From Escherichia coli (GTDB lineage Bacteria; Pseudomonadota; Gammaproteobacteria; Enterobacterales; Enterobacteriaceae): a stretch of DNA of 64,000 nt. Below, one piece after another: positions 46,792 through 58,137 of this stretch. A model generated the notes under the pieces. That model did not search any database, had not been told where the DNA came from, and worked only from the letters and a program-made list of their open reading frames with translations. The position numbers were made by a program, and so were the translations under genes. How positions within the stretch are numbered: position 1 is the first letter of the stretch; each line of letters starts with the position of its first letter. The stretch lies in the NCBI RefSeq assembly GCF_024223415.1, contig NZ_CP100500.1. One strand, written 5' to 3'.

Positions 46792-47670
46792 ATGATGACA
46801 CTTAACCTGCGTGAACAACAAACAAGACTACAGGCGCGGATGGATGAGTTACGGGCAGAGATTGCATTTGCTCAGAATGGCGAAAAGCCATGGCCTTATC
46901 GATCCTGCTGGATGCGTGAAGGGCGCGGGTGTTGCGAAAAACATGGCGAATACCACACACATATTCTGGTGTGGAGCGATCGTAATGGCGAGGATAGAGA
47001 AAAAATTTCATGCTGCCCTGACTGCTTGATAGCTGAGGCCAACGATTTGACCATGGAGCTGTCGTCCCTCAAGGCGGAAGAACTGACTGATAACGCCGGA
47101 ATTGCTCTGCGTTTTCGGGACTGCGAGTTTGATAATTATCTGGAGGTTAATCCTGACGCAGCCAGAAATCTTGCGGCCTGTCGCCGCTATGCGGAGAACT
47201 GGCCAGATATGCTGGAGAACGGTACCAGTCTTGTTATGACCGGCAGTTGCGGTACCGGGAAAAATCATCTGGCGGTATCAATGGCAAAACACATCATCCG
47301 TAACTATCTGGCCAGTGTGGAGATCACCGACGTGATGCGCCTTACCCGTGCTGTGAAAAACTGCTGGCGGAATGACAGTGAAAAAACAGCGGATGACGTC
47401 ATTGAGCATTATGCGTCACTGGATTTGCTGATCATCGACGAAGTCGGCGTTCAGTTTGGCAGTGCGGCTAAAATGGCCATTTTGCAGGAAATTATCAATG
47501 CCCGGTATGAGGGTATTTTGCCAACTATCTTGATCAGCAACCTTTCACCGGAAGAATTGTGGGCGTTCATCAGTCCCCGGATTGCCGACAGGATCACCGA
47601 TGGCGGGCGCAACTGGTTGTCGTTTAACTGGCCCAGCTACCGTTCTCGTATCGGAGGTGTTGCCGCATGA
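46792..47670 (+). CDS. DnaC/IstB-like AAA+ helicase loader
   Basis: Walker A (GSCGTGKNHL) and Walker B (LLIIDEVG). GAGG RBS before the ATG at 46792. The ORF-track GTG is at 46783. Confidence 0.8.
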   Translation: MMTLNLREQQTRLQARMDELRAEIAFAQNGEKPWPYRSCWMREGRGCCEKHGEYHTHILVWSDRNGEDREKISCCPDCLIAEANDLTMELSSLKAEELTDNAGIALRFRDCEFDNYLEVNPDAARNLAACRRYAENWPDMLENGTSLVMTGSCGTGKNHLAVSMAKHIIRNYLASVEITDVMRLTRAVKNCWRNDSEKTADDVIEHYASLDLLIIDEVGVQFGSAAKMAILQEIINARYEGILPTILISNLSPEELWAFISPRIADRITDGGRNWLSFNWPSYRSRIGGVAA

Positions 47671-54184: not shown

Positions 54185-54718
54185 ATGAACGCAAAAATCA
54201 GATACGGCCTGTCGGCTGCCGTTCTGGCGCTGATTGGTGCTGGCGCATCTGCTCCTCAGATACTTGATCAGTTTCTGGACGAAAAAGAGGGTAACCACAC
54301 AACGGCATACCGCGATGGGTCCGGCATCTGGACCATCTGTCGGGGTGCCACGATGGTGGATGGAAAACCCGTTTTTCCCGGAATGAAGCTGTCGAAGGAA
54401 AAATGCGACCAGGTTAACGCTATTGAACGTGATAAGGCACTGGCATGGGTGGAGCGCAATATTAAAGTACCTCTGACCGAACCACAGAAAGCGGGTATTG
54501 CGTCATTCTGTCCCTATAACATTGGCCCCGGTAAGTGTTTCCCGTCGACGTTTTATAAGCGGCTTAATGCCGGTGATCGAAAAGGCGCCTGCGAGGCGAT
54601 TCGCTGGTGGATAAAGGATGGTGGGCGCGATTGCCGCATACGTTCAAATAACTGCTATGGACAGGTTATTCGTCGTGACCAGGAAAGCGCATTAGCCTGT
54701 TGGGGGATAGATCAGTGA
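54185..54718 (+). CDS. R: SAR-type endolysin, GH24 lysozyme (177 aa)
   Basis: Gly/Ala-rich N-terminal signal-arrest-release-like segment ([15 protein letters not shown]). E-8x-D-5x-T catalytic pattern ([16 protein letters not shown]). Confidence 0.85.
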
Positions 54719-55182
54719 GCAGAGTCGCCGCGATTATTTATGCTCTGGTTATCTGCATCATCGTCTGCCTGTCGTGGGCGGTCAATCATTACCGTGATAA
54801 CGCCATCGCCTACAAAGAACAGCGAGATAAAAAAGTCAGTGAGCTGAAGCAGGCGACCGCCACCATTACTGACATGCAGCAACGCCAGCGTGCTGCTGAT
54901 GTACTCGATGCTAAATACACGAAGGAGTTAGCTGATGCGAAAGCTAAAAATGATGCTCTTCGGCGCAAGCTTGATAATGGTGGCAGGGTGCTCGTCAAAG
55001 GAAAATGCCCTGTGCCATCCTCAGCCGAAACCTCCAGCGCCTCCGGCATGGGCAATGATGCCACCGTCGAACTCTCTCCAGTTGCTGGACGAAACGTTCT
55101 CGGTGTCCGGGACGGAATTATCCGCGACCAAACAGCACTGAGAACGCTTCAGGAATACATCAGGACGCAATGCCTTCGATGA
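54715..55182 (+). CDS. Rz: i-spanin Rz (155 aa)
   Basis: GTG at 54715 overlaps the endolysin stop. N-terminal TM followed by a coiled coil. Confidence 0.8.
54935..55141 (+). CDS. Rz1: o-spanin Rz1, embedded in the +1 frame of Rz (68 aa precursor)
   Basis: Lipobox LIMVAGC. Pro-rich mature part. Lies entirely inside Rz. Confidence 0.8.
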
Positions 55183-55322
55183 TAGCGATAATTTTACTCA
55201 TCATCCTTCACATCTGGCTCTGTAGACAGGGTGGTGATCACTTCTGGAGTGAATCCAGATTAAACATCTCATTGCTGATTCTTGATATTGAGCATCTGGC
55301 GCGCGGTAAGGGGCTGCGTTGA
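55179..55322 (+). CDS. Candidate 47-aa membrane peptide translationally coupled to Rz
   Basis: Hand translation gives [47 protein letters not shown]. Its ATG overlaps the Rz stop (ATGA). Followed by a terminator. Confidence 0.3.
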
Positions 55323-55356
55323 GATAAGAGCCAGTCATCACAAACACCAGGATTTA

Positions 55357-55380
55357 GCCTCGCATTCGCGGGGCTTTTTA
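55357..55380 (+). terminator. Intrinsic terminator downstream of the lysis genes
   Basis: GCCTCGC-attc-GCGGGGC stem plus T5. Confidence 0.65.
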
Positions 55381-55400
55381 TTGCAACAAAGGTAAAGACG

Positions 55401-55688
55401 ATGGATGAAGAATATCGTAAAAACCTGCAACTGTGGTTTGGTCTTACGCATGCGTCGTTCTGCGTGATGCCGCGAGTATTCATGGAGGCTATGCCACCAG
55501 AATGGCAAGAGAAGATGGCTCAGTTGCTTTTTGAGTATAGCGACACAATCAAAACGGATGTCTGCGGAGTTCACAGCTGTTTTGTTACTGCCAAAGACGG
55601 CAACAACCGCTTTATGAGGATGCCAGAAGATATTCTGAACTATCGTCATCCCCGACGTGAATTCATCGAATCATTTCTGAAGAAGTAG
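55401..55688 (+). CDS. Hypothetical phage protein (95 aa)
   Basis: ORF track. The RBS region is AAAGGTAAAGACG. Confidence 0.5.
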   Translation: MDEEYRKNLQLWFGLTHASFCVMPRVFMEAMPPEWQEKMAQLLFEYSDTIKTDVCGVHSCFVTAKDGNNRFMRMPEDILNYRHPRREFIESFLKK

Positions 55689-55959
55689 CCATTACAAAGC
55701 CTATCTACGGGTGGGCTTGATAATGAAACCAGAATTTATTCTGGGAAACCAGTTACGGCAGTACAGCGAAACAACCCAAGCCAGTAAGTGGGGAAATAAC
55801 ACTGGCAGCCACTGAAAGATGAACCTCCTGCCTTATGGCAAAAAAGATTCTTTGTGGTGGCGGACTGATGGAAAGACATCGGTTATTGCAGAGACCATTC
55901 AATGAGTGGTCTCGACAATGGCTTATACCCTACACGGGATAACTTAACTGATATCCCTT

Positions 55960-56136
55960 TTAACGGATAAAGGTATTCAAGCCTGACATATCATGCGCTG
56001 TATCGTCGCCGTATTCCCGTATTAACAGAGACCGTAGCCCGACGGGGAACTCCTTCTGCGCGAGTGTGCGGGAATAATCAAAAACGATGCACACCGGGTT
56101 TTTACCGCGTTTATGGTTCGCGGGTTTGTCCCTCAT
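55960..56136 (-). CDS. Possible small ORF (58 aa) or gene remnant
   Basis: Hand translation gives MRDKPANHKRGKNPVCIVFDYSRTLAQKEFPVGLRSLLIREYGDDTAHDMSGLNTFIR*. Protein-like, but no clear RBS. Confidence 0.25.
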   Translation of the reverse strand: MRDKPANHKRGKNPVCIVFDYSRTLAQKEFPVGLRSLLIREYGDDTAHDMSGLNTFIR

Positions 56137-56309
56137 GCTCGCCAGTCCGGTGCGATGGTGGAAGAAACCGGAAGCTGTATTACAGAAAGTGCTACTACTG
56201 TATCCTGATGCGATGTATGTAATGTGAGTCAGATAATGGCACAGGATGTGGTGATGTGGCAGTCTGGAACACAGGATATATTGTCAGAATAAGACCCGTA
56301 GGAATAAAA

Positions 56310-56636
56310 ATGAAAAGACGCCTTTCACTACTTTTTCTGTTATCTGCCCTGGCAGTGGGATGCTCGCAGCAAAAAGCTGATGAGCCCCGGCAATTAGTGA
56401 CGGTGTATCCACGATATCCGGAATATGCTGCAGCAAATTATATCAAGGGGCTGGTTGAGGTTAAGTTCGATATTGGTGCTGACGGGACTGTGACACGGAT
56501 CGTTTTTCTCCGCTCAGAGCCTCATAATTTGTTTCGTGATGAAGTGGTGAAGGCCATGGCGAAATGGAGATTTGAAAAGAATAGTCCCCGTCAGGGAGTG
56601 AAGAGACAATTTATCTTTACGCCATCACGTCCCTGA
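56310..56636 (+). CDS. Lipoprotein with a TonB C-terminal-like domain (108 aa)
   Basis: MKRRLSLLFLLSALAVGC lipobox. YPRYPEYAAANYIKGLVEVKFDIGADGTVTRIVFLRSEP..FRDEVVKAMAKWRF fits the TonB_C pattern (YP..A......G.V.V.F.I...G.V). Confidence 0.65.
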   Translation: MKRRLSLLFLLSALAVGCSQQKADEPRQLVTVYPRYPEYAAANYIKGLVEVKFDIGADGTVTRIVFLRSEPHNLFRDEVVKAMAKWRFEKNSPRQGVKRQFIFTPSRP

Positions 56637-56758
56637 TGCTTCCAGGTAGAGAGGGGCTGGAAGCAGGAGAAAAATGAAAGAGCCAGCGGTTATATTTTTG
56701 TCATGGCTGACGAGAAATGATGGAAGAAGGCGTTGTATGCCACACAACGCCTCACTGT

Positions 56759-56905
56759 TCATTTCTTCTTTTTCTCTGGTGTAACCCGATGAATAAGAGT
56801 TGCACTGGTTTCCGATGAGATGGCGATATGCTCGGGCAAAGTATGCTGGCAGTTTTCCAACTGGTCAAAAATACCTGCTCTCGTCTGTTGCAATGCCTGC
56901 AGCAT
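56759..56905 (-). CDS. Possible small ORF (48 aa)
   Basis: Hand translation gives MLQALQQTRAGIFDQLENCQHTLPEHIAISSETSATLIHRVTPEKKKK*. A hairpin (GGCGTTGT..ACAACGCC, 56729-56751) lies just downstream. Confidence 0.25.
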   Translation of the reverse strand: MLQALQQTRAGIFDQLENCQHTLPEHIAISSETSATLIHRVTPEKKKK

Positions 56906-57000
56906 GCGGCGGCAATGCGCCTTTGCTTTTGCTAACCATCTTTCCTTACTCTATCAGTCGCTGCGTGAACTCATCATGGAATACCAGGTAAATGCGGATG

Positions 57001-57252
57001 TTATCGGTTTTGGCTACGCAGCATAGTACAAAACGGACAGGTGCATCCCGGAATGGGGGAGGCGTCACATGTCCCTGTGATGGTTGTTCCGGGTAATGCA
57101 CTGTGTGGGGCATAAAAATGTCCGATAATTTTACTTTCTACCGCAGTTAGTTGATTCGTTGGTCCTGGTAGCACATTGGGCGAGGGTTTAAATGCCAGGC
57201 AACTGAAGGATGATGTTGCAAGGGAGATAGCGAGAATATTTCTGATTTTCAT
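57001..57252 (-). CDS. Small secreted Cys-containing protein (83 aa precursor)
   Basis: Internal start of ORF 57001..57318. Signal peptide MKIRNILAISLATSSFSCLA. C-terminal TCDASPIPGCTCPFC cluster. Confidence 0.5.
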   Translation of the reverse strand: MKIRNILAISLATSSFSCLAFKPSPNVLPGPTNQLTAVESKIIGHFYAPHSALPGTTITGTCDASPIPGCTCPFCTMLRSQNR

Positions 57253-57403
57253 TTGATGATGCCTCTGTGTGAAATGACGGTAAACGACGCACTTGTGCCG
57301 GCACATAATAGCAAGCATCAGAATAGATCAGATTCGATTCTTGCTGTAAGTGATAATTATTCTCGTTTTTTTCGGGTCCTTTCCGGCGATCCAACAGGTT
57401 ACG

Positions 57404-57415
57404 GGGCGTCGACCT
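57404..57415 (+). other. cosN: 12-nt cohesive-end sequence GGGCGTCGACCT
   Basis: CAGGTTACG-GGGCGTCGACCT-CGCGCGTTTTCGCTATTTATGAAAATTTTCCGG is almost identical to the lambda cos sequence (lambda has GGGCGGCGACCT). Confidence 0.85.
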
Positions 57416-57452
57416 CGCGCGTTTTCGCTATTTATGAAAATTTTCCGGGATC

Positions 57453-57551
57453 CATGTCCGGTTTCTCTGCAAGTTAACTATATGAAAAATATAAAAACAT
57501 GCTTTCTGCGAACCGGACATGTGCAAAAAATGTACAAACAAACCGGACATA
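57453..57551 (+). promoter_or_regulatory. cosB-like region: three CCGGACAT(G/A) terminase small-subunit binding repeats
   Basis: Inverted copy at 57453-57461. Direct copies at 57513-57521 and 57543-57551, 30 bp apart. An A/T-rich segment lies between them, analogous to lambda R3-I1-R2-R1. Confidence 0.6.
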
Positions 57552-57627
57552 TGCGTGCGTTTGCATAAAGTTGCTCGCAAGATGCATGTTTAAAACGCAT
57601 GAGGGGAGATTTTTTGCGAGGTGAACA

Positions 57628-58137
57628 GTGGCTACGCAGACTGAAGTTGCCAGGCATTTGAGTCTGACCGATCGCCAGCTTCGCAGACTGCAGAAATTGC
57701 CGGGTGCCCCGATATCGAATAAGCGAGGGCAACTGGATCTGGATGCCTGGCGTGATTTTTACATATCGTATCTGAGAAGAAGTAAAAACGATGTGCCTGA
57801 TGGCGATAGCGAAGACGACTATGAGGAGAAATTGCTTATTGCCAGATGGGAACTGACAGCAGAACAGGCTGTTACACAGCAGTTAAAAAATGAGGTGTCA
57901 AAAGGAAAACTTATTGACACCGGATTCTGTATTTTTGCCCTCAGCAAGCTGGCAATGGCGTTATCCAGTACGCTTGATTCCATCCCTTTATCCATGCAAC
58001 GACAGTTTCCTGATTTAACACCGCGCCATCTTGACCATCTGAAAACCCTTATTGCGAAGGGGGCAAATCAGTGTGCGCGGGCAGGGGATAAATTACCGGA
58101 TTTACTCGATGAATATATCAGAGCAACAACTGAATAA
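57628..58137 (+). CDS. nu1: Terminase small subunit (Nu1-like, 169 aa)
   Basis: GTG start after a GAGGTG RBS. N-terminal winged HTH (TQTEVARHLSLTDRQLRRLQK). Lies between cos and the large subunit. Confidence 0.8.
   Translation: MATQTEVARHLSLTDRQLRRLQKLPGAPISNKRGQLDLDAWRDFYISYLRRSKNDVPDGDSEDDYEEKLLIARWELTAEQAVTQQLKNEVSKGKLIDTGFCIFALSKLAMALSSTLDSIPLSMQRQFPDLTPRHLDHLKTLIAKGANQCARAGDKLPDLLDEYIRATTE

What the first reader, a model, noticed from the sequence alone, without database searches (positions are those of the whole stretch)
56310..56636. Stand-alone TonB C-terminal-domain lipoprotein encoded as a prophage moron
Seen: a 108-aa ORF with a lipobox (LSALAVGC) followed directly by a TonB_C-like domain (YPRYPEYAAANYIKGLVEVKFDIGADGTVTRIVFLRSEP...FRDEVVKAMAKWRF). 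It lacks the N-terminal TM anchor and the Pro-rich spacer of real TonB. It lies between the lysis genes and cos and ends near a hairpin (56729-56751). Established: the TonB C-terminal domain contacts the TonB box of outer-membrane receptors, and many phages and colicins depend on TonB-dependent receptors. Inference: a periplasmic, lipid-anchored TonB_C decoy could compete for TonB boxes. That would block TonB-dependent phage or colicin entry (superinfection exclusion), or modulate iron uptake.
Basis: partly seen in the sequence, partly recalled or inferred. Interest (0 to 1): 0.5.

Follow-up and report, generated by a model that had tools for sequence, protein, structure and literature searches.

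The report
Prophage lipoprotein copy of TonB's tip
A small prophage gene found in roughly a quarter of E. coli genomes encodes a lipid-anchored copy of the receptor-docking end of TonB that is switched on in lysogens; it probably jams the TonB-powered outer-membrane gates used by iron carriers, colicins and some phages, but nobody has tested this.

Summary
Window 56310-56636 (+) encodes a 108-aa protein with a signal peptide, a lipobox (LAVGC|S) and a complete TonB C-terminal domain. Support: Pfam 50.7 bits; 41% ungapped identity to E. coli TonB 150-230; AlphaFold model within about 1 Å of TonB bound to BtuB or FhuA. It has no membrane anchor and no Pro-rich spacer.

It is a real, selected gene. 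dN/dS is 0.12 between two E. coli clades. It occurs in 1224 (clade 1) and 415 (clade 2) of 5426 complete E. coli genomes, and in phage 21. It belongs to a wider Enterobacterales family of roughly 105-135-aa TonB_C lipoproteins.

In every phage lineage found it is a single-gene insertion between the spanin genes and cos/terminase. Published RNA-seq shows a 96%-identical copy (prophage Perceval, strain LF82, "TonB fragment") transcribed in lysogens while its late-gene neighbours are silent. So it meets the insertion and expression criteria for a moron.

The proposed function is an outer-membrane-tethered TonB decoy that caps TonB boxes. This is plausible: exported TonB fragments inhibit the Ton system, and Llp/Cor are analogous lipoproteins. 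It is untested (confidence about 0.45). The gene is already widely annotated but I found no functional study. Interest is moderate.

The parts
56310..56636 (+). CDS of the 108-aa stand-alone TonB_C lipoprotein (stop codon included)
   Evidence: ORF list and sequence. Pfam TonB_C 50.7 bits. dN/dS 0.12. Annotated 'TonB family protein' in 1224 E. coli genomes and 'TonB C-terminal domain protein' in phage 21.
56310..56363 (+). Signal peptide II with lipobox L-A-V-G-C; Cys18 codon at 56361-56363; +2 residue is Ser (outer-membrane sorting inferred)
   Evidence: PROSITE-type lipobox regex matches. The Cys is kept in 31 of 32 family members aligned. The +2 residue is S/T/A/V and never D.
56388..56618 (+). 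TonB C-terminal domain proper (residues about 27-103; strand-helix-beta1-beta2-helix-beta3)
   Evidence: AlphaFold2 with a 32-sequence alignment: mean pLDDT 86, above 95 in the domain. Foldseek top hits are 1u07, 2gsk_B and 2grx_C with target-normalised TM 0.88-0.92 and rmsd 0.9-1.3 Å.
56300..56303 (+). Shine-Dalgarno AGGA, 6 nt before the ATG
   Evidence: Sequence. Annotated as RBS for the orthologue in phage 21.
56173..56309 (+). Cassette-specific 5' leader. It must hold or follow the promoter used in lysogens; the best candidate -10 is GATAAT at 56232-56237, conserved in clade 2 (inference)
   Evidence: Similarity to phages without the gene ends at 56172. Only weak 8/12 sigma-70 matches were found. 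Autonomous transcription of the Perceval orthologue.
55994..56172 (+). Widely conserved non-coding element that forms the left border of the insertion
   Evidence: 78-96% identical in mEp460, ev243, 933W, ES18 and part of lambda; about 500 phage records. Indels break reading frames. The + strand consensus fold is -45 kcal/mol.
56728..56752 (.). 9-bp hairpin between the convergent TonB_C gene and the minus-strand ORF 56759-56905; weak or uncertain terminator
   Evidence: Fold -13 kcal/mol centroid, z = -1.66, no adjacent U-run. Not conserved in clade 2.
54700..55182 (+). Context: i-spanin Rz with embedded o-spanin Rz1 (54935-55141); end of the lysis cassette
   Evidence: Pfam Phage_lysis 98 bits and Rz1 75 bits.
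57374..57415 (+). Context: cosQ (57374-57380) and cosN (57404-57415), 768 bp downstream of the stop codon
   Evidence: Alignment to the annotated right and left ends of phage 21.

Best explanation
The gene is a lysogenic-conversion moron encoding a lipoprotein. [quoted passage not shown] There it displays a complete, monomeric TonB C-terminal domain on a linker of about 10 residues. It sits directly beneath TonB-dependent transporters but is not connected to the ExbB-ExbD motor. Its beta3 edge pairs with exposed TonB boxes as real TonB does, but no force is transmitted. It therefore competes with the scarce host TonB and dampens TonB-dependent uptake across many transporters at once. The expected payoff for the lysogen is reduced entry of group B colicins and microcins, and reduced entry of phages that need energised TonB (T1 and phi80 types). 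The cost is reduced siderophore and B12 import. What is shown: the fold, the lipobox, purifying selection, the insertion structure, and transcription in lysogens (for a 96% orthologue). What is inferred: outer-membrane location, TonB-box binding, and the exclusion phenotype.
For: TonB_C identity: Pfam, TIGRFAM and PDB sequence matches. Ungapped 41% identity to TonB 150-230, keeping Y163-P164, G186 and all five aromatic residues F180/F202/W213/Y215/F230. Confident model (pLDDT 86) superposing at about 1 Å on TonB in the BtuB and FhuA complexes. Similar basic charge (pI 10.2 versus 10.4). Lipoprotein: the lipobox is conserved down to about 31% identity and Asp never occurs at +2. Function under selection: dN/dS 0.12 with dS about 1.45; intact in 80 of 80 IMG/VR loci; present in 1224 and 415 of 5426 E. 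coli genomes. Moron: clean indel between a conserved element and ylcI/cos. It occupies the same slot after the spanin genes in E. coli clades 1 and 2, a Klebsiella phage, a Rahnella prophage and metagenomic phages, despite different lysis and terminase modules. Expression in lysogens: Perceval LF82_160 had 122-269 reads versus 6-10 for Rz and 15-34 for terS, 8-fold above prophage background (PMC9928086). Precedents: exported TonB 33-239, 103-239 and 122-239 inhibit the Ton system (bioRxiv 10.1101/2020.01.05.895219). TonB binds TonB boxes of transporters and of colicin M (PMC11658791). The acylated outer-membrane lipoproteins Llp and Cor block FhuA from the periplasmic side (bioRxiv 10.64898/2026.03.26.714494).
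Against: There is no binding or phenotype data for this protein, and ten searches of the held open-access/bioRxiv library found no functional study. The positions equivalent to TonB Q160 and R166, implicated in TonB-box and FhuA contacts, are Y/L and Y here. Isolated TonB C-terminal domain did not bind unliganded FhuA in nanodiscs according to the review, so affinity without ligand may be low. The gene is transcribed constitutively in lysogens and is carried by 23-30% of E. coli, so a strong block of iron uptake would be costly. Related lipoproteins sit in ordinary chromosomal contexts in Pantoea, Raoultella and another enterobacterium, which hints at a housekeeping role. It is not represented in PADLOC. 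It is not linked to any particular tail or receptor module.
Confidence: 0.45

Rival explanations
1. Transporter-specific allosteric blocker in the manner of Llp and Cor. The lipoprotein binds the periplasmic face of one or a few TonB-dependent receptors and changes their surface loops. Phage adsorption or colicin binding is then prevented, rather than TonB being out-competed generally.
For: Llp and Cor are acylated outer-membrane lipoproteins that act this way on FhuA. TonB C-terminal domain binding shifts extracellular loops of FoxA (review). The Q160 and R166 substitutions could reflect a changed specificity.
Against: The fold is TonB_C, not the Llp/Cor fold. TonB-box pairing is mostly backbone-mediated and generic (my knowledge of the TonB-receptor complex structures, not checked here). 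The gene travels with many different tail modules, so it is not matched to the carrier phage's own receptor.
Confidence: 0.15
2. TonB trap. [quoted passage not shown] It inhibits or re-tunes the system from the TonB side rather than the transporter side.
For: The aromatic residues through which TonB C-terminal domains dimerise in vivo (my knowledge of published cysteine cross-linking work, not checked here) are all kept. The preprint tests ExbD-TonB contacts as a possible alternative target of exported TonB fragments.
Against: A linker of about 10 residues on the outer membrane cannot plausibly reach ExbD near the inner membrane (inference). Longer TonB C-terminal constructs are monomeric (1u07 and 1xx3 are the best structural matches).
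Confidence: 0.1
3. Envelope or virulence factor unrelated to the Ton system. The TonB_C fold is used as a peptidoglycan-binding or protein-binding module that tethers or stabilises the outer membrane, comparable to the neighbouring Bor lipoprotein.
For: It shares the bor slot and is often adjacent to bor. Chromosomal relatives occur in non-phage contexts without conserved synteny. TonB homologues can evolve new ligands: FusB binds ferredoxin (PDB 9hi3 among the hits). Peptidoglycan binding by the TonB C-terminus has been reported (my recollection, not checked here).
Against: The core TonB residues are retained and the model is near-identical to receptor-bound TonB. No peptidoglycan-binding motif was tested or found.
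Confidence: 0.12
4. Lysis accessory or spanin-like protein, as the PHROG label 'Rz-like spanin' suggests.
For: PHROG 1267 hit at 2e-40. The gene always lies just after the spanin genes on the late-gene strand.
Against: The window has its own complete Rz/Rz1 pair. The protein has no Rz1 Pfam match. The orthologue is transcribed in lysogens while lysis genes are silent. Related phages lyse without it (ev243, mEp460).
Confidence: 0.03
5. Inert captured fragment of tonB, as the annotations 'partial tonB-like' and 'TonB fragment' imply.
For: Database names. Occasional truncated or frameshifted copies exist (P0032, P0035).
Against: dN/dS is 0.12 across saturated synonymous divergence. An added signal peptide and lipobox are conserved family-wide. 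The protein is closer to other short lipoproteins (96 bits) than to real TonB (55-59 bits). It is transcribed.
Confidence: 0.02

Closest known systems
E. coli TonB C-terminal domain (residues about 150-239; PDB 1u07, 2gsk, 2grx)
   Same: Same fold (target-normalised TM about 0.9, rmsd about 1 Å). 41% identity without gaps. The YP motif, G186 and five aromatic residues are kept. Similar basic charge.
   Different: No N-terminal TM helix and no Pro-rich rod, so no link to ExbB-ExbD and no energy input. Anchored by lipid to the outer membrane instead of the inner membrane. Q160 becomes Y or L, and R166 becomes Y. Ends five residues after beta3.
Engineered periplasmic TonB fragments (33-239, 103-239, 122-239) that inhibit the Ton system
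   Same: An uncoupled TonB C-terminal domain in the periplasm. This is the direct experimental precedent for a dominant-negative effect.
   Different: Those fragments are soluble, over-expressed laboratory constructs that include the Pro-rich region. This protein is natural, shorter, lipid-anchored and under selection.
Llp (T5) and Cor (phi80, N15, HK022, mEp167) superinfection-exclusion lipoproteins
   Same: Small phage-encoded lipoproteins of the outer-membrane inner leaflet that act on a TonB-dependent transporter from the periplasmic side. Acylation concentrates them in the membrane plane.
   Different: Unrelated fold and sequence. Llp and Cor are FhuA-specific and match the carrier phage's own receptor. 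This protein has the generic TonB-box reader and is not tied to a tail type.
Bor/Iss lipoprotein moron of lambda-like phages
   Same: Same genomic slot between Rz and cos. It is an outer-membrane lipoprotein, is expressed in lysogens, and often lies next to this gene.
   Different: Opposite strand, unrelated fold, and a known serum-resistance role.
Short chromosomal TonB_C lipoproteins of Pantoea, Erwinia, Raoultella and Klebsiella ('TonB family protein', about 105-135 aa)
   Same: Same architecture and family-specific residues (Y39, S69-x-P71, LFD, KWRFE, P93). These are the closest relatives by score.
   Different: 31-45% identical. They lie in ordinary chromosomal neighbourhoods without conserved synteny. 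I found no characterisation of them in the searches run here.

Membership tests
TonB_C domain (Pfam PF03544 / TIGR01352) | Profile score above the curated threshold | tested here: met
   50.7 bits against 24.6 and 48.6 bits against 27.1.
TonB_C domain (Pfam PF03544 / TIGR01352) | Alpha/beta fold of the TonB C-terminus with an exposed beta3 edge | tested here: met
   Model pLDDT 86. Foldseek hits to 1u07, 2gsk_B and 2grx_C with target-normalised TM 0.88-0.92.
TonB_C domain (Pfam PF03544 / TIGR01352) | Binds TonB boxes of outer-membrane transporters | not testable with these tools
   Needs binding or cross-linking experiments. No multimer prediction was available.
TonB energy transducer (NCBIfam PRK10819 equivalogs) | N-terminal TM helix that couples to ExbB-ExbD | tested here: not met
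   The N-terminus is a cleavable lipoprotein signal peptide, and the alignment to TonB starts at residue 149.
TonB energy transducer (NCBIfam PRK10819 equivalogs) | Pro-rich periplasm-spanning spacer and full-length equivalog score | tested here: not met
   108 aa in total. Equivalog scores are 46-67 bits against cut-offs of 265-448.
Bacterial lipoprotein (signal peptidase II substrate) | Lipobox [LVI..][ASTVI..][GAS]C after a basic n-region and hydrophobic core | tested here: met
   MKRR-LSLLFLLSALAVG-C. The regex matches and the Cys is conserved in 31 of 32 relatives.
Bacterial lipoprotein (signal peptidase II substrate) | Acylation and outer-membrane sorting | not testable with these tools
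   Inferred from the +2 rule (Ser/Thr/Ala, never Asp). Needs globomycin, palmitate labelling or fractionation.
Moron (Hendrix definition) | Extra gene inserted between genes that are adjacent in related phages | tested here: met
   ev243 has the conserved element, then 60 bp, then ylcI. JLK-2012 and L085 have the element, then 667 bp that include the gene, then ylcI. mEp460 also lacks the gene.
Moron (Hendrix definition) | Transcribed autonomously in the lysogen | tested here: met
   This rests on published RNA-seq of the 96%-identical Perceval copy: 8-fold above prophage background while flanking late genes are at background (PMC9928086). It was not measured for this window's strain.
Moron (Hendrix definition) | Own promoter and terminator identifiable | tested here: inconclusive
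   No sigma-70 match of 9/12 or better on the + strand, only 8/12 candidates. The downstream hairpin is weak.
Cor/Llp superinfection-exclusion lipoproteins | Sequence or fold homology to Llp/Cor | tested here: not met
   The only PHROG matches below E = 0.1 are 1267 and 34172, and no listed family carries a Cor or Llp name. The fold is TonB_C.
o-spanin (Rz1) | Rz1 profile match and role as the partner of Rz | tested here: not met
   No Rz1 Pfam hit. The window already encodes Rz1 at 54935-55141.

The most novel reading that the evidence does not exclude
Temperate enterobacterial phages have domesticated the receptor-docking tip of TonB as an outer-membrane lipoprotein. It would act as a pan-specific 'TonB-box cap', a single 10-kDa protein that lowers the activity of all TonB-dependent transporters of the lysogen at once. 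That would give broad protection against TonB-dependent phages, colicins and microcins, a generic counterpart to the FhuA-specific Llp and Cor. In the phage 21 / Perceval lineage the iron cost would be offset by the co-carried TonB-independent SitABCD importer.
Probability: 0.35. Interest if true: 0.7.

Novelty: new variant of a known kind. Interest (0 to 1): 0.5.

Why it matters
The gene is carried by about 23-30% of complete E. coli genomes, including STEC and AIEC prophages, and by the classical phage 21. No function has been assigned to it. If it antagonises the Ton system, it would be a natural dominant-negative TonB. That would mean a new, transporter-agnostic mode of prophage-mediated exclusion and colicin tolerance. 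It would also be a hidden modifier of siderophore, B12 and siderophore-antibiotic (for example cefiderocol-type) uptake in many clinical strains. It would further give a compact natural reagent for probing TonB-box exposure in vivo. If it does something else, then a widespread family of TonB_C lipoproteins has an unknown envelope role.

Tried and rejected
1. Spanin reading (PHROG 1267 'Rz-like spanin'). Rejected because the window has its own Rz/Rz1 pair and the orthologue is expressed while lysis genes are silent.
2. Decaying tonB fragment. Rejected by dN/dS of 0.12 and the conserved lipobox.
3. Late-operon-only expression. I first inferred this from the strand and the absence of a promoter. 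The LF82 RNA-seq overturned it.
4. Promoter search. Nothing better than 8/12 was found. Visual inspection of the upstream sequence showed no convincing Fur box or sigma-E motif; no formal search was run.
5. Rfam on 55100-57700: no hit.
6. PADLOC: no hit.
7. BFVD viral structure library: no match at E of 0.001 or better.
8. First AlphaFold run with a 6-sequence alignment gave pLDDT 54 and was discarded. The 32-sequence alignment gave pLDDT 86.
9. The genome-contig scan gave only 4 loci because one genome stands for each species.
10. sitABCD linkage. All 7 clade-1 phage records carry it, but a chromosomal prophage with the identical gene does not. I treat this as a lineage effect, not a rule.
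11. Self-receptor blocking. Disfavoured because the gene occurs with many terminase and structural module types.
12. Ten literature searches of the held library found no functional study of this protein.

Full report
**What is there.** Window 56310-56636 (+) is an ATG-initiated ORF of 108 codons, with AGGA 6 nt upstream. The first 18 residues, MKRRLSLLFLLSALAVGC, form a classical signal-peptidase-II signal with a lipobox and Ser at +2. Residues 33-102 match Pfam TonB_C (E 2.6e-13, 50.7 bits against a 24.6 cut-off) and TIGR01352. A phmmer search of PDB sequences returns only TonB C-terminal domains, led by E. coli TonB (E about 1e-14). A pairwise alignment is ungapped over TonB 149-230 at 41% identity. 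It keeps Y163-P164, G186 and the five aromatic residues F180, F202, W213, Y215 and F230. Q160 is Tyr (Leu in the second clade) and R166 is Tyr.

AlphaFold2 with six sequences gave a poor model (pLDDT 54). With a 32-sequence family alignment it gave pLDDT 86, above 95 across the domain. Foldseek against the PDB puts E. coli TonB first: 1u07, 2gsk_B (BtuB complex) and 2grx_C (FhuA complex). Target-normalised TM is 0.88-0.92 and rmsd 0.9-1.3 Å. Full-length TonB equivalog models score far below threshold. The protein has no room for a TM anchor or Pro-rich rod.

**Is it a real gene?** Yes. The same gene at 95% identity or better is present in 1224 of 5426 complete E. coli genomes, annotated 'TonB family protein'. 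A 70%-identical clade is in 415 genomes, with up to four copies per genome. It is gene CPT_21_73 ('TonB C-terminal domain protein') of the classical lambdoid phage 21. It also occurs in ev017, Perceval, three PhiR phages, Stx1a phages, JLK-2012 and Lys8385Vzw. Between the two E. coli clades dS is saturated (about 1.45) while dN/dS is 0.12. Both clades keep exactly 108 codons and the lipobox. All 80 best IMG/VR loci have an intact frame. The 'partial' and 'fragment' labels in databases are misleading.

**The wider family.** An exhaustive HMMER search shows that the nearest relatives are not TonB proteins (55-59 bits). They are other short proteins of roughly 105-135 aa with a lipobox followed directly by TonB_C (up to 96 bits). 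A profile search adds members from Pantoea, Erwinia, Rahnella and a genome labelled Salmonella. The lipobox Cys is present in 31 of 32 aligned sequences, and the +2 residue is S/T/A/V, never Asp. Family-specific invariant positions (Y39, S69-x-P71, LFD, KWRFE, P93) point to a single origin rather than repeated captures of tonB.

Contexts split in two. The first is ordinary chromosomal neighbourhoods without conserved synteny: Raoultella L004 and L005, L091, and Pantoea L092 and L098. The second is prophages.

**Genomic position.** In the window the gene follows lysozyme (54185-54718), Rz (54700-55182) and Rz1 (54935-55141), all with Pfam support. It precedes cosQ (57374-57380), cosN (57404-57415, GGGCGTCGACCT) and Nu1/A (57628 onward). 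In all 80 IMG/VR loci it lies between Rz (or Rz-bor) and the small terminase gene, on the late-gene strand. The flanks vary: lysozyme or SAR endolysin, with or without bor, and several Nu1 and TerL types.

The same slot is used in four further settings:
- the 41%-identical gene of Klebsiella phage ST13-OXA48phi12.4;
- the 31%-identical gene of a Rahnella lambdoid prophage;
- clade 2 phages with HNH-terS-terL packaging modules;
- metagenomic phages L104-L109.

Comparison with phages lacking the gene shows a clean indel. ev243 has a conserved element, then 60 bp, then ylcI and cos. JLK-2012 and L085 have the same element, then 667 bp containing the gene, then ylcI. mEp460 also stops matching at window 56172.

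**Expression.** Consensus scans find no good sigma-70 promoter on the + strand. The best are 8/12 matches, including a GATAAT at 56232-56237 that is conserved between clades. From the strand alone I first expected late-operon expression.

Published RNA-seq contradicts that. In AIEC strain LF82, prophage Perceval gene LF82_160/PERCE_65 ('TonB fragment', 327 bp) is listed among morons at 8-fold above prophage background. Perceval's protein is 96% identical to the window's, and Perceval shares the whole 55994-57403 module at 96% identity. The supplementary table gives 122-269 reads for this gene, 6-10 for Rz and 15-34 for the small terminase. Levels are unchanged between LB and macrophages (PMC9928086). 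So the gene is autonomously transcribed in lysogens and meets the insertion and expression criteria for a moron. Its promoter and terminator remain unidentified. It is weak, lacks a U-run, is not conserved in clade 2, and lies between convergent ORFs.

**Mechanism.** Established knowledge, mostly cited through PMC11658791, is as follows. The TonB C-terminal domain contacts the TonB box of transporters and of group B colicins. Q160L suppresses TonB-box mutations. T1 needs energised TonB for irreversible adsorption. That the contact is beta-augmentation at the beta3 strand, and that phi80 shares T1's requirement, rest on my own knowledge. Exported TonB fragments 33-239, 103-239 and 122-239 inhibit Ton-dependent transport (bioRxiv 10.1101/2020.01.05.895219). 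Llp and Cor show that small acylated outer-membrane lipoproteins can inactivate a TonB-dependent transporter from the periplasmic side, and that acylation helps by confining the partners to the membrane plane.

The present protein combines these features. It has an intact TonB docking domain with TonB-like charge. It is held on a linker of about 10 residues at the inner leaflet of the outer membrane, exactly where TonB boxes emerge. It has no connection to the motor. The most economical reading is a tethered competitive decoy that damps all TonB-dependent uptake and so reduces entry of TonB-dependent phages, colicins and microcins.

I give this reading about 0.45, because binding, localisation and phenotype are all inferred. 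Several observations argue for caution:
- Q160 and R166 are not conserved.
- Expression is constitutive and the gene is very common, which argues against a severe iron-uptake block.
- Chromosomal relatives exist outside phages.

Rivals are a transporter-specific allosteric blocker (0.15), a trap for TonB itself (0.10), a Ton-unrelated envelope factor (0.12), a lysis accessory (0.03) and an inert fragment (0.02).

**Comparison and novelty.** The protein is a member of the TonB_C domain family. It is not a TonB energy transducer, not a Cor/Llp homologue and not a spanin (see membership tests). It works most like laboratory dominant-negative TonB fragments, and it occupies the ecological niche of Llp, Cor and Bor. 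The gene is already annotated in thousands of records and was listed as an expressed moron in 2023. Ten full-text searches found no functional study, and the BFVD viral structure library holds no similar fold. I class it as a new variant of a known kind. It is of moderate interest and directly testable.

Noticed in passing
window 55994-56172 (+): A highly conserved non-coding element lies immediately upstream of the cassette. It is 78-96% identical in about 500 lambdoid phage records (mEp460, ev243, 933W, VT2-Sakai, ES18, and part of lambda at 47258-47364), whether or not they carry the TonB_C gene. It is more conserved than the adjacent CDS, and indels rule out coding. The + strand consensus fold is -45 kcal/mol against -23 on the - strand, with G-U-compatible one-sided changes and 4 pairs with double changes. 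No Rfam family matches. It may be a structured RNA in the late transcript, or a recombination linker.
   Followed up: partly
phage 21 record OL657228.1 21967-25416 (locus L008 9968-13417); not in the window: All 7 clade-1 TonB_C phage records (phage 21, ev017 twice, Perceval, PhiR47_2, PhiR57_1, PhiR63_2) also carry sitABCD, a TonB-independent Fe/Mn importer. Only 27 of 50,697 phage records have it. In LF82 both are expressed as morons. A chromosomal prophage with a gene identical to the window's lacks sitABCD. The link may be lineage-bound rather than functional.
   Followed up: partly
window 55401-55688 (+): The 95-aa ORF between the lysis genes and the cassette matches only the C-terminal 92 positions (139-230) of the 233-position profile of PHROG 3527. 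It looks like a truncated gene remnant and has no Pfam hit.
   Followed up: partly
window 55356-55375 (+): A strong intrinsic-terminator-like hairpin (8 bp, 6 of them GC, followed by TTTTATT) lies about 175 nt after Rz. Late transcription must read through it by Q antitermination. It would also insulate the TonB_C gene from upstream transcription in lysogens.
   Followed up: no
window 56759-56905 (-) and 56820-57026 (+): Two small overlapping ORFs lie between the cassette and cos. They match PHROG 4843 (3e-34) and PHROG 3744 (7e-21), both of unknown function. The minus-strand ORF is convergent with the TonB_C gene. In clade 2 the corresponding neighbour is a YlcI/YnfO family gene.
   Followed up: no
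window 56310-56633 (protein): PHROG 1267, which this protein matches end to end (2e-40), is labelled 'Rz-like spanin' in the lysis category. That label appears to be an annotation error that will propagate to phage genome annotations.
   Followed up: yes
L004 7738-8301 (Raoultella) and L003 1232-1858 (Klebsiella phage): A chromosomal TonB_C lipoprotein in Raoultella ornithinolytica appears to sit next to a YagU-like membrane protein; that identification is from reading the ORF, not a profile search. The Klebsiella phage that carries a TonB_C lipoprotein also encodes an annotated DUF1440 protein upstream of its lysis cassette. This may be coincidence or a functional pairing.
   Followed up: no
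proteins P0036, P0043, P0048 and others: The exhaustive search returned many long proteins (about 370-1300 aa) with 3-6 tandem TonB_C-like stretches. This is an architecture quite unlike TonB, and their origin and role were not examined.
   Followed up: no
window 57404-57415: cosN reads GGGCGTCGACCT. That is one base different from the lambda cohesive end as I recall it (GGGCGGCGACCT, from memory). cosQ (GGGTCCT) sits at the position annotated in phage 21.
   Followed up: partly
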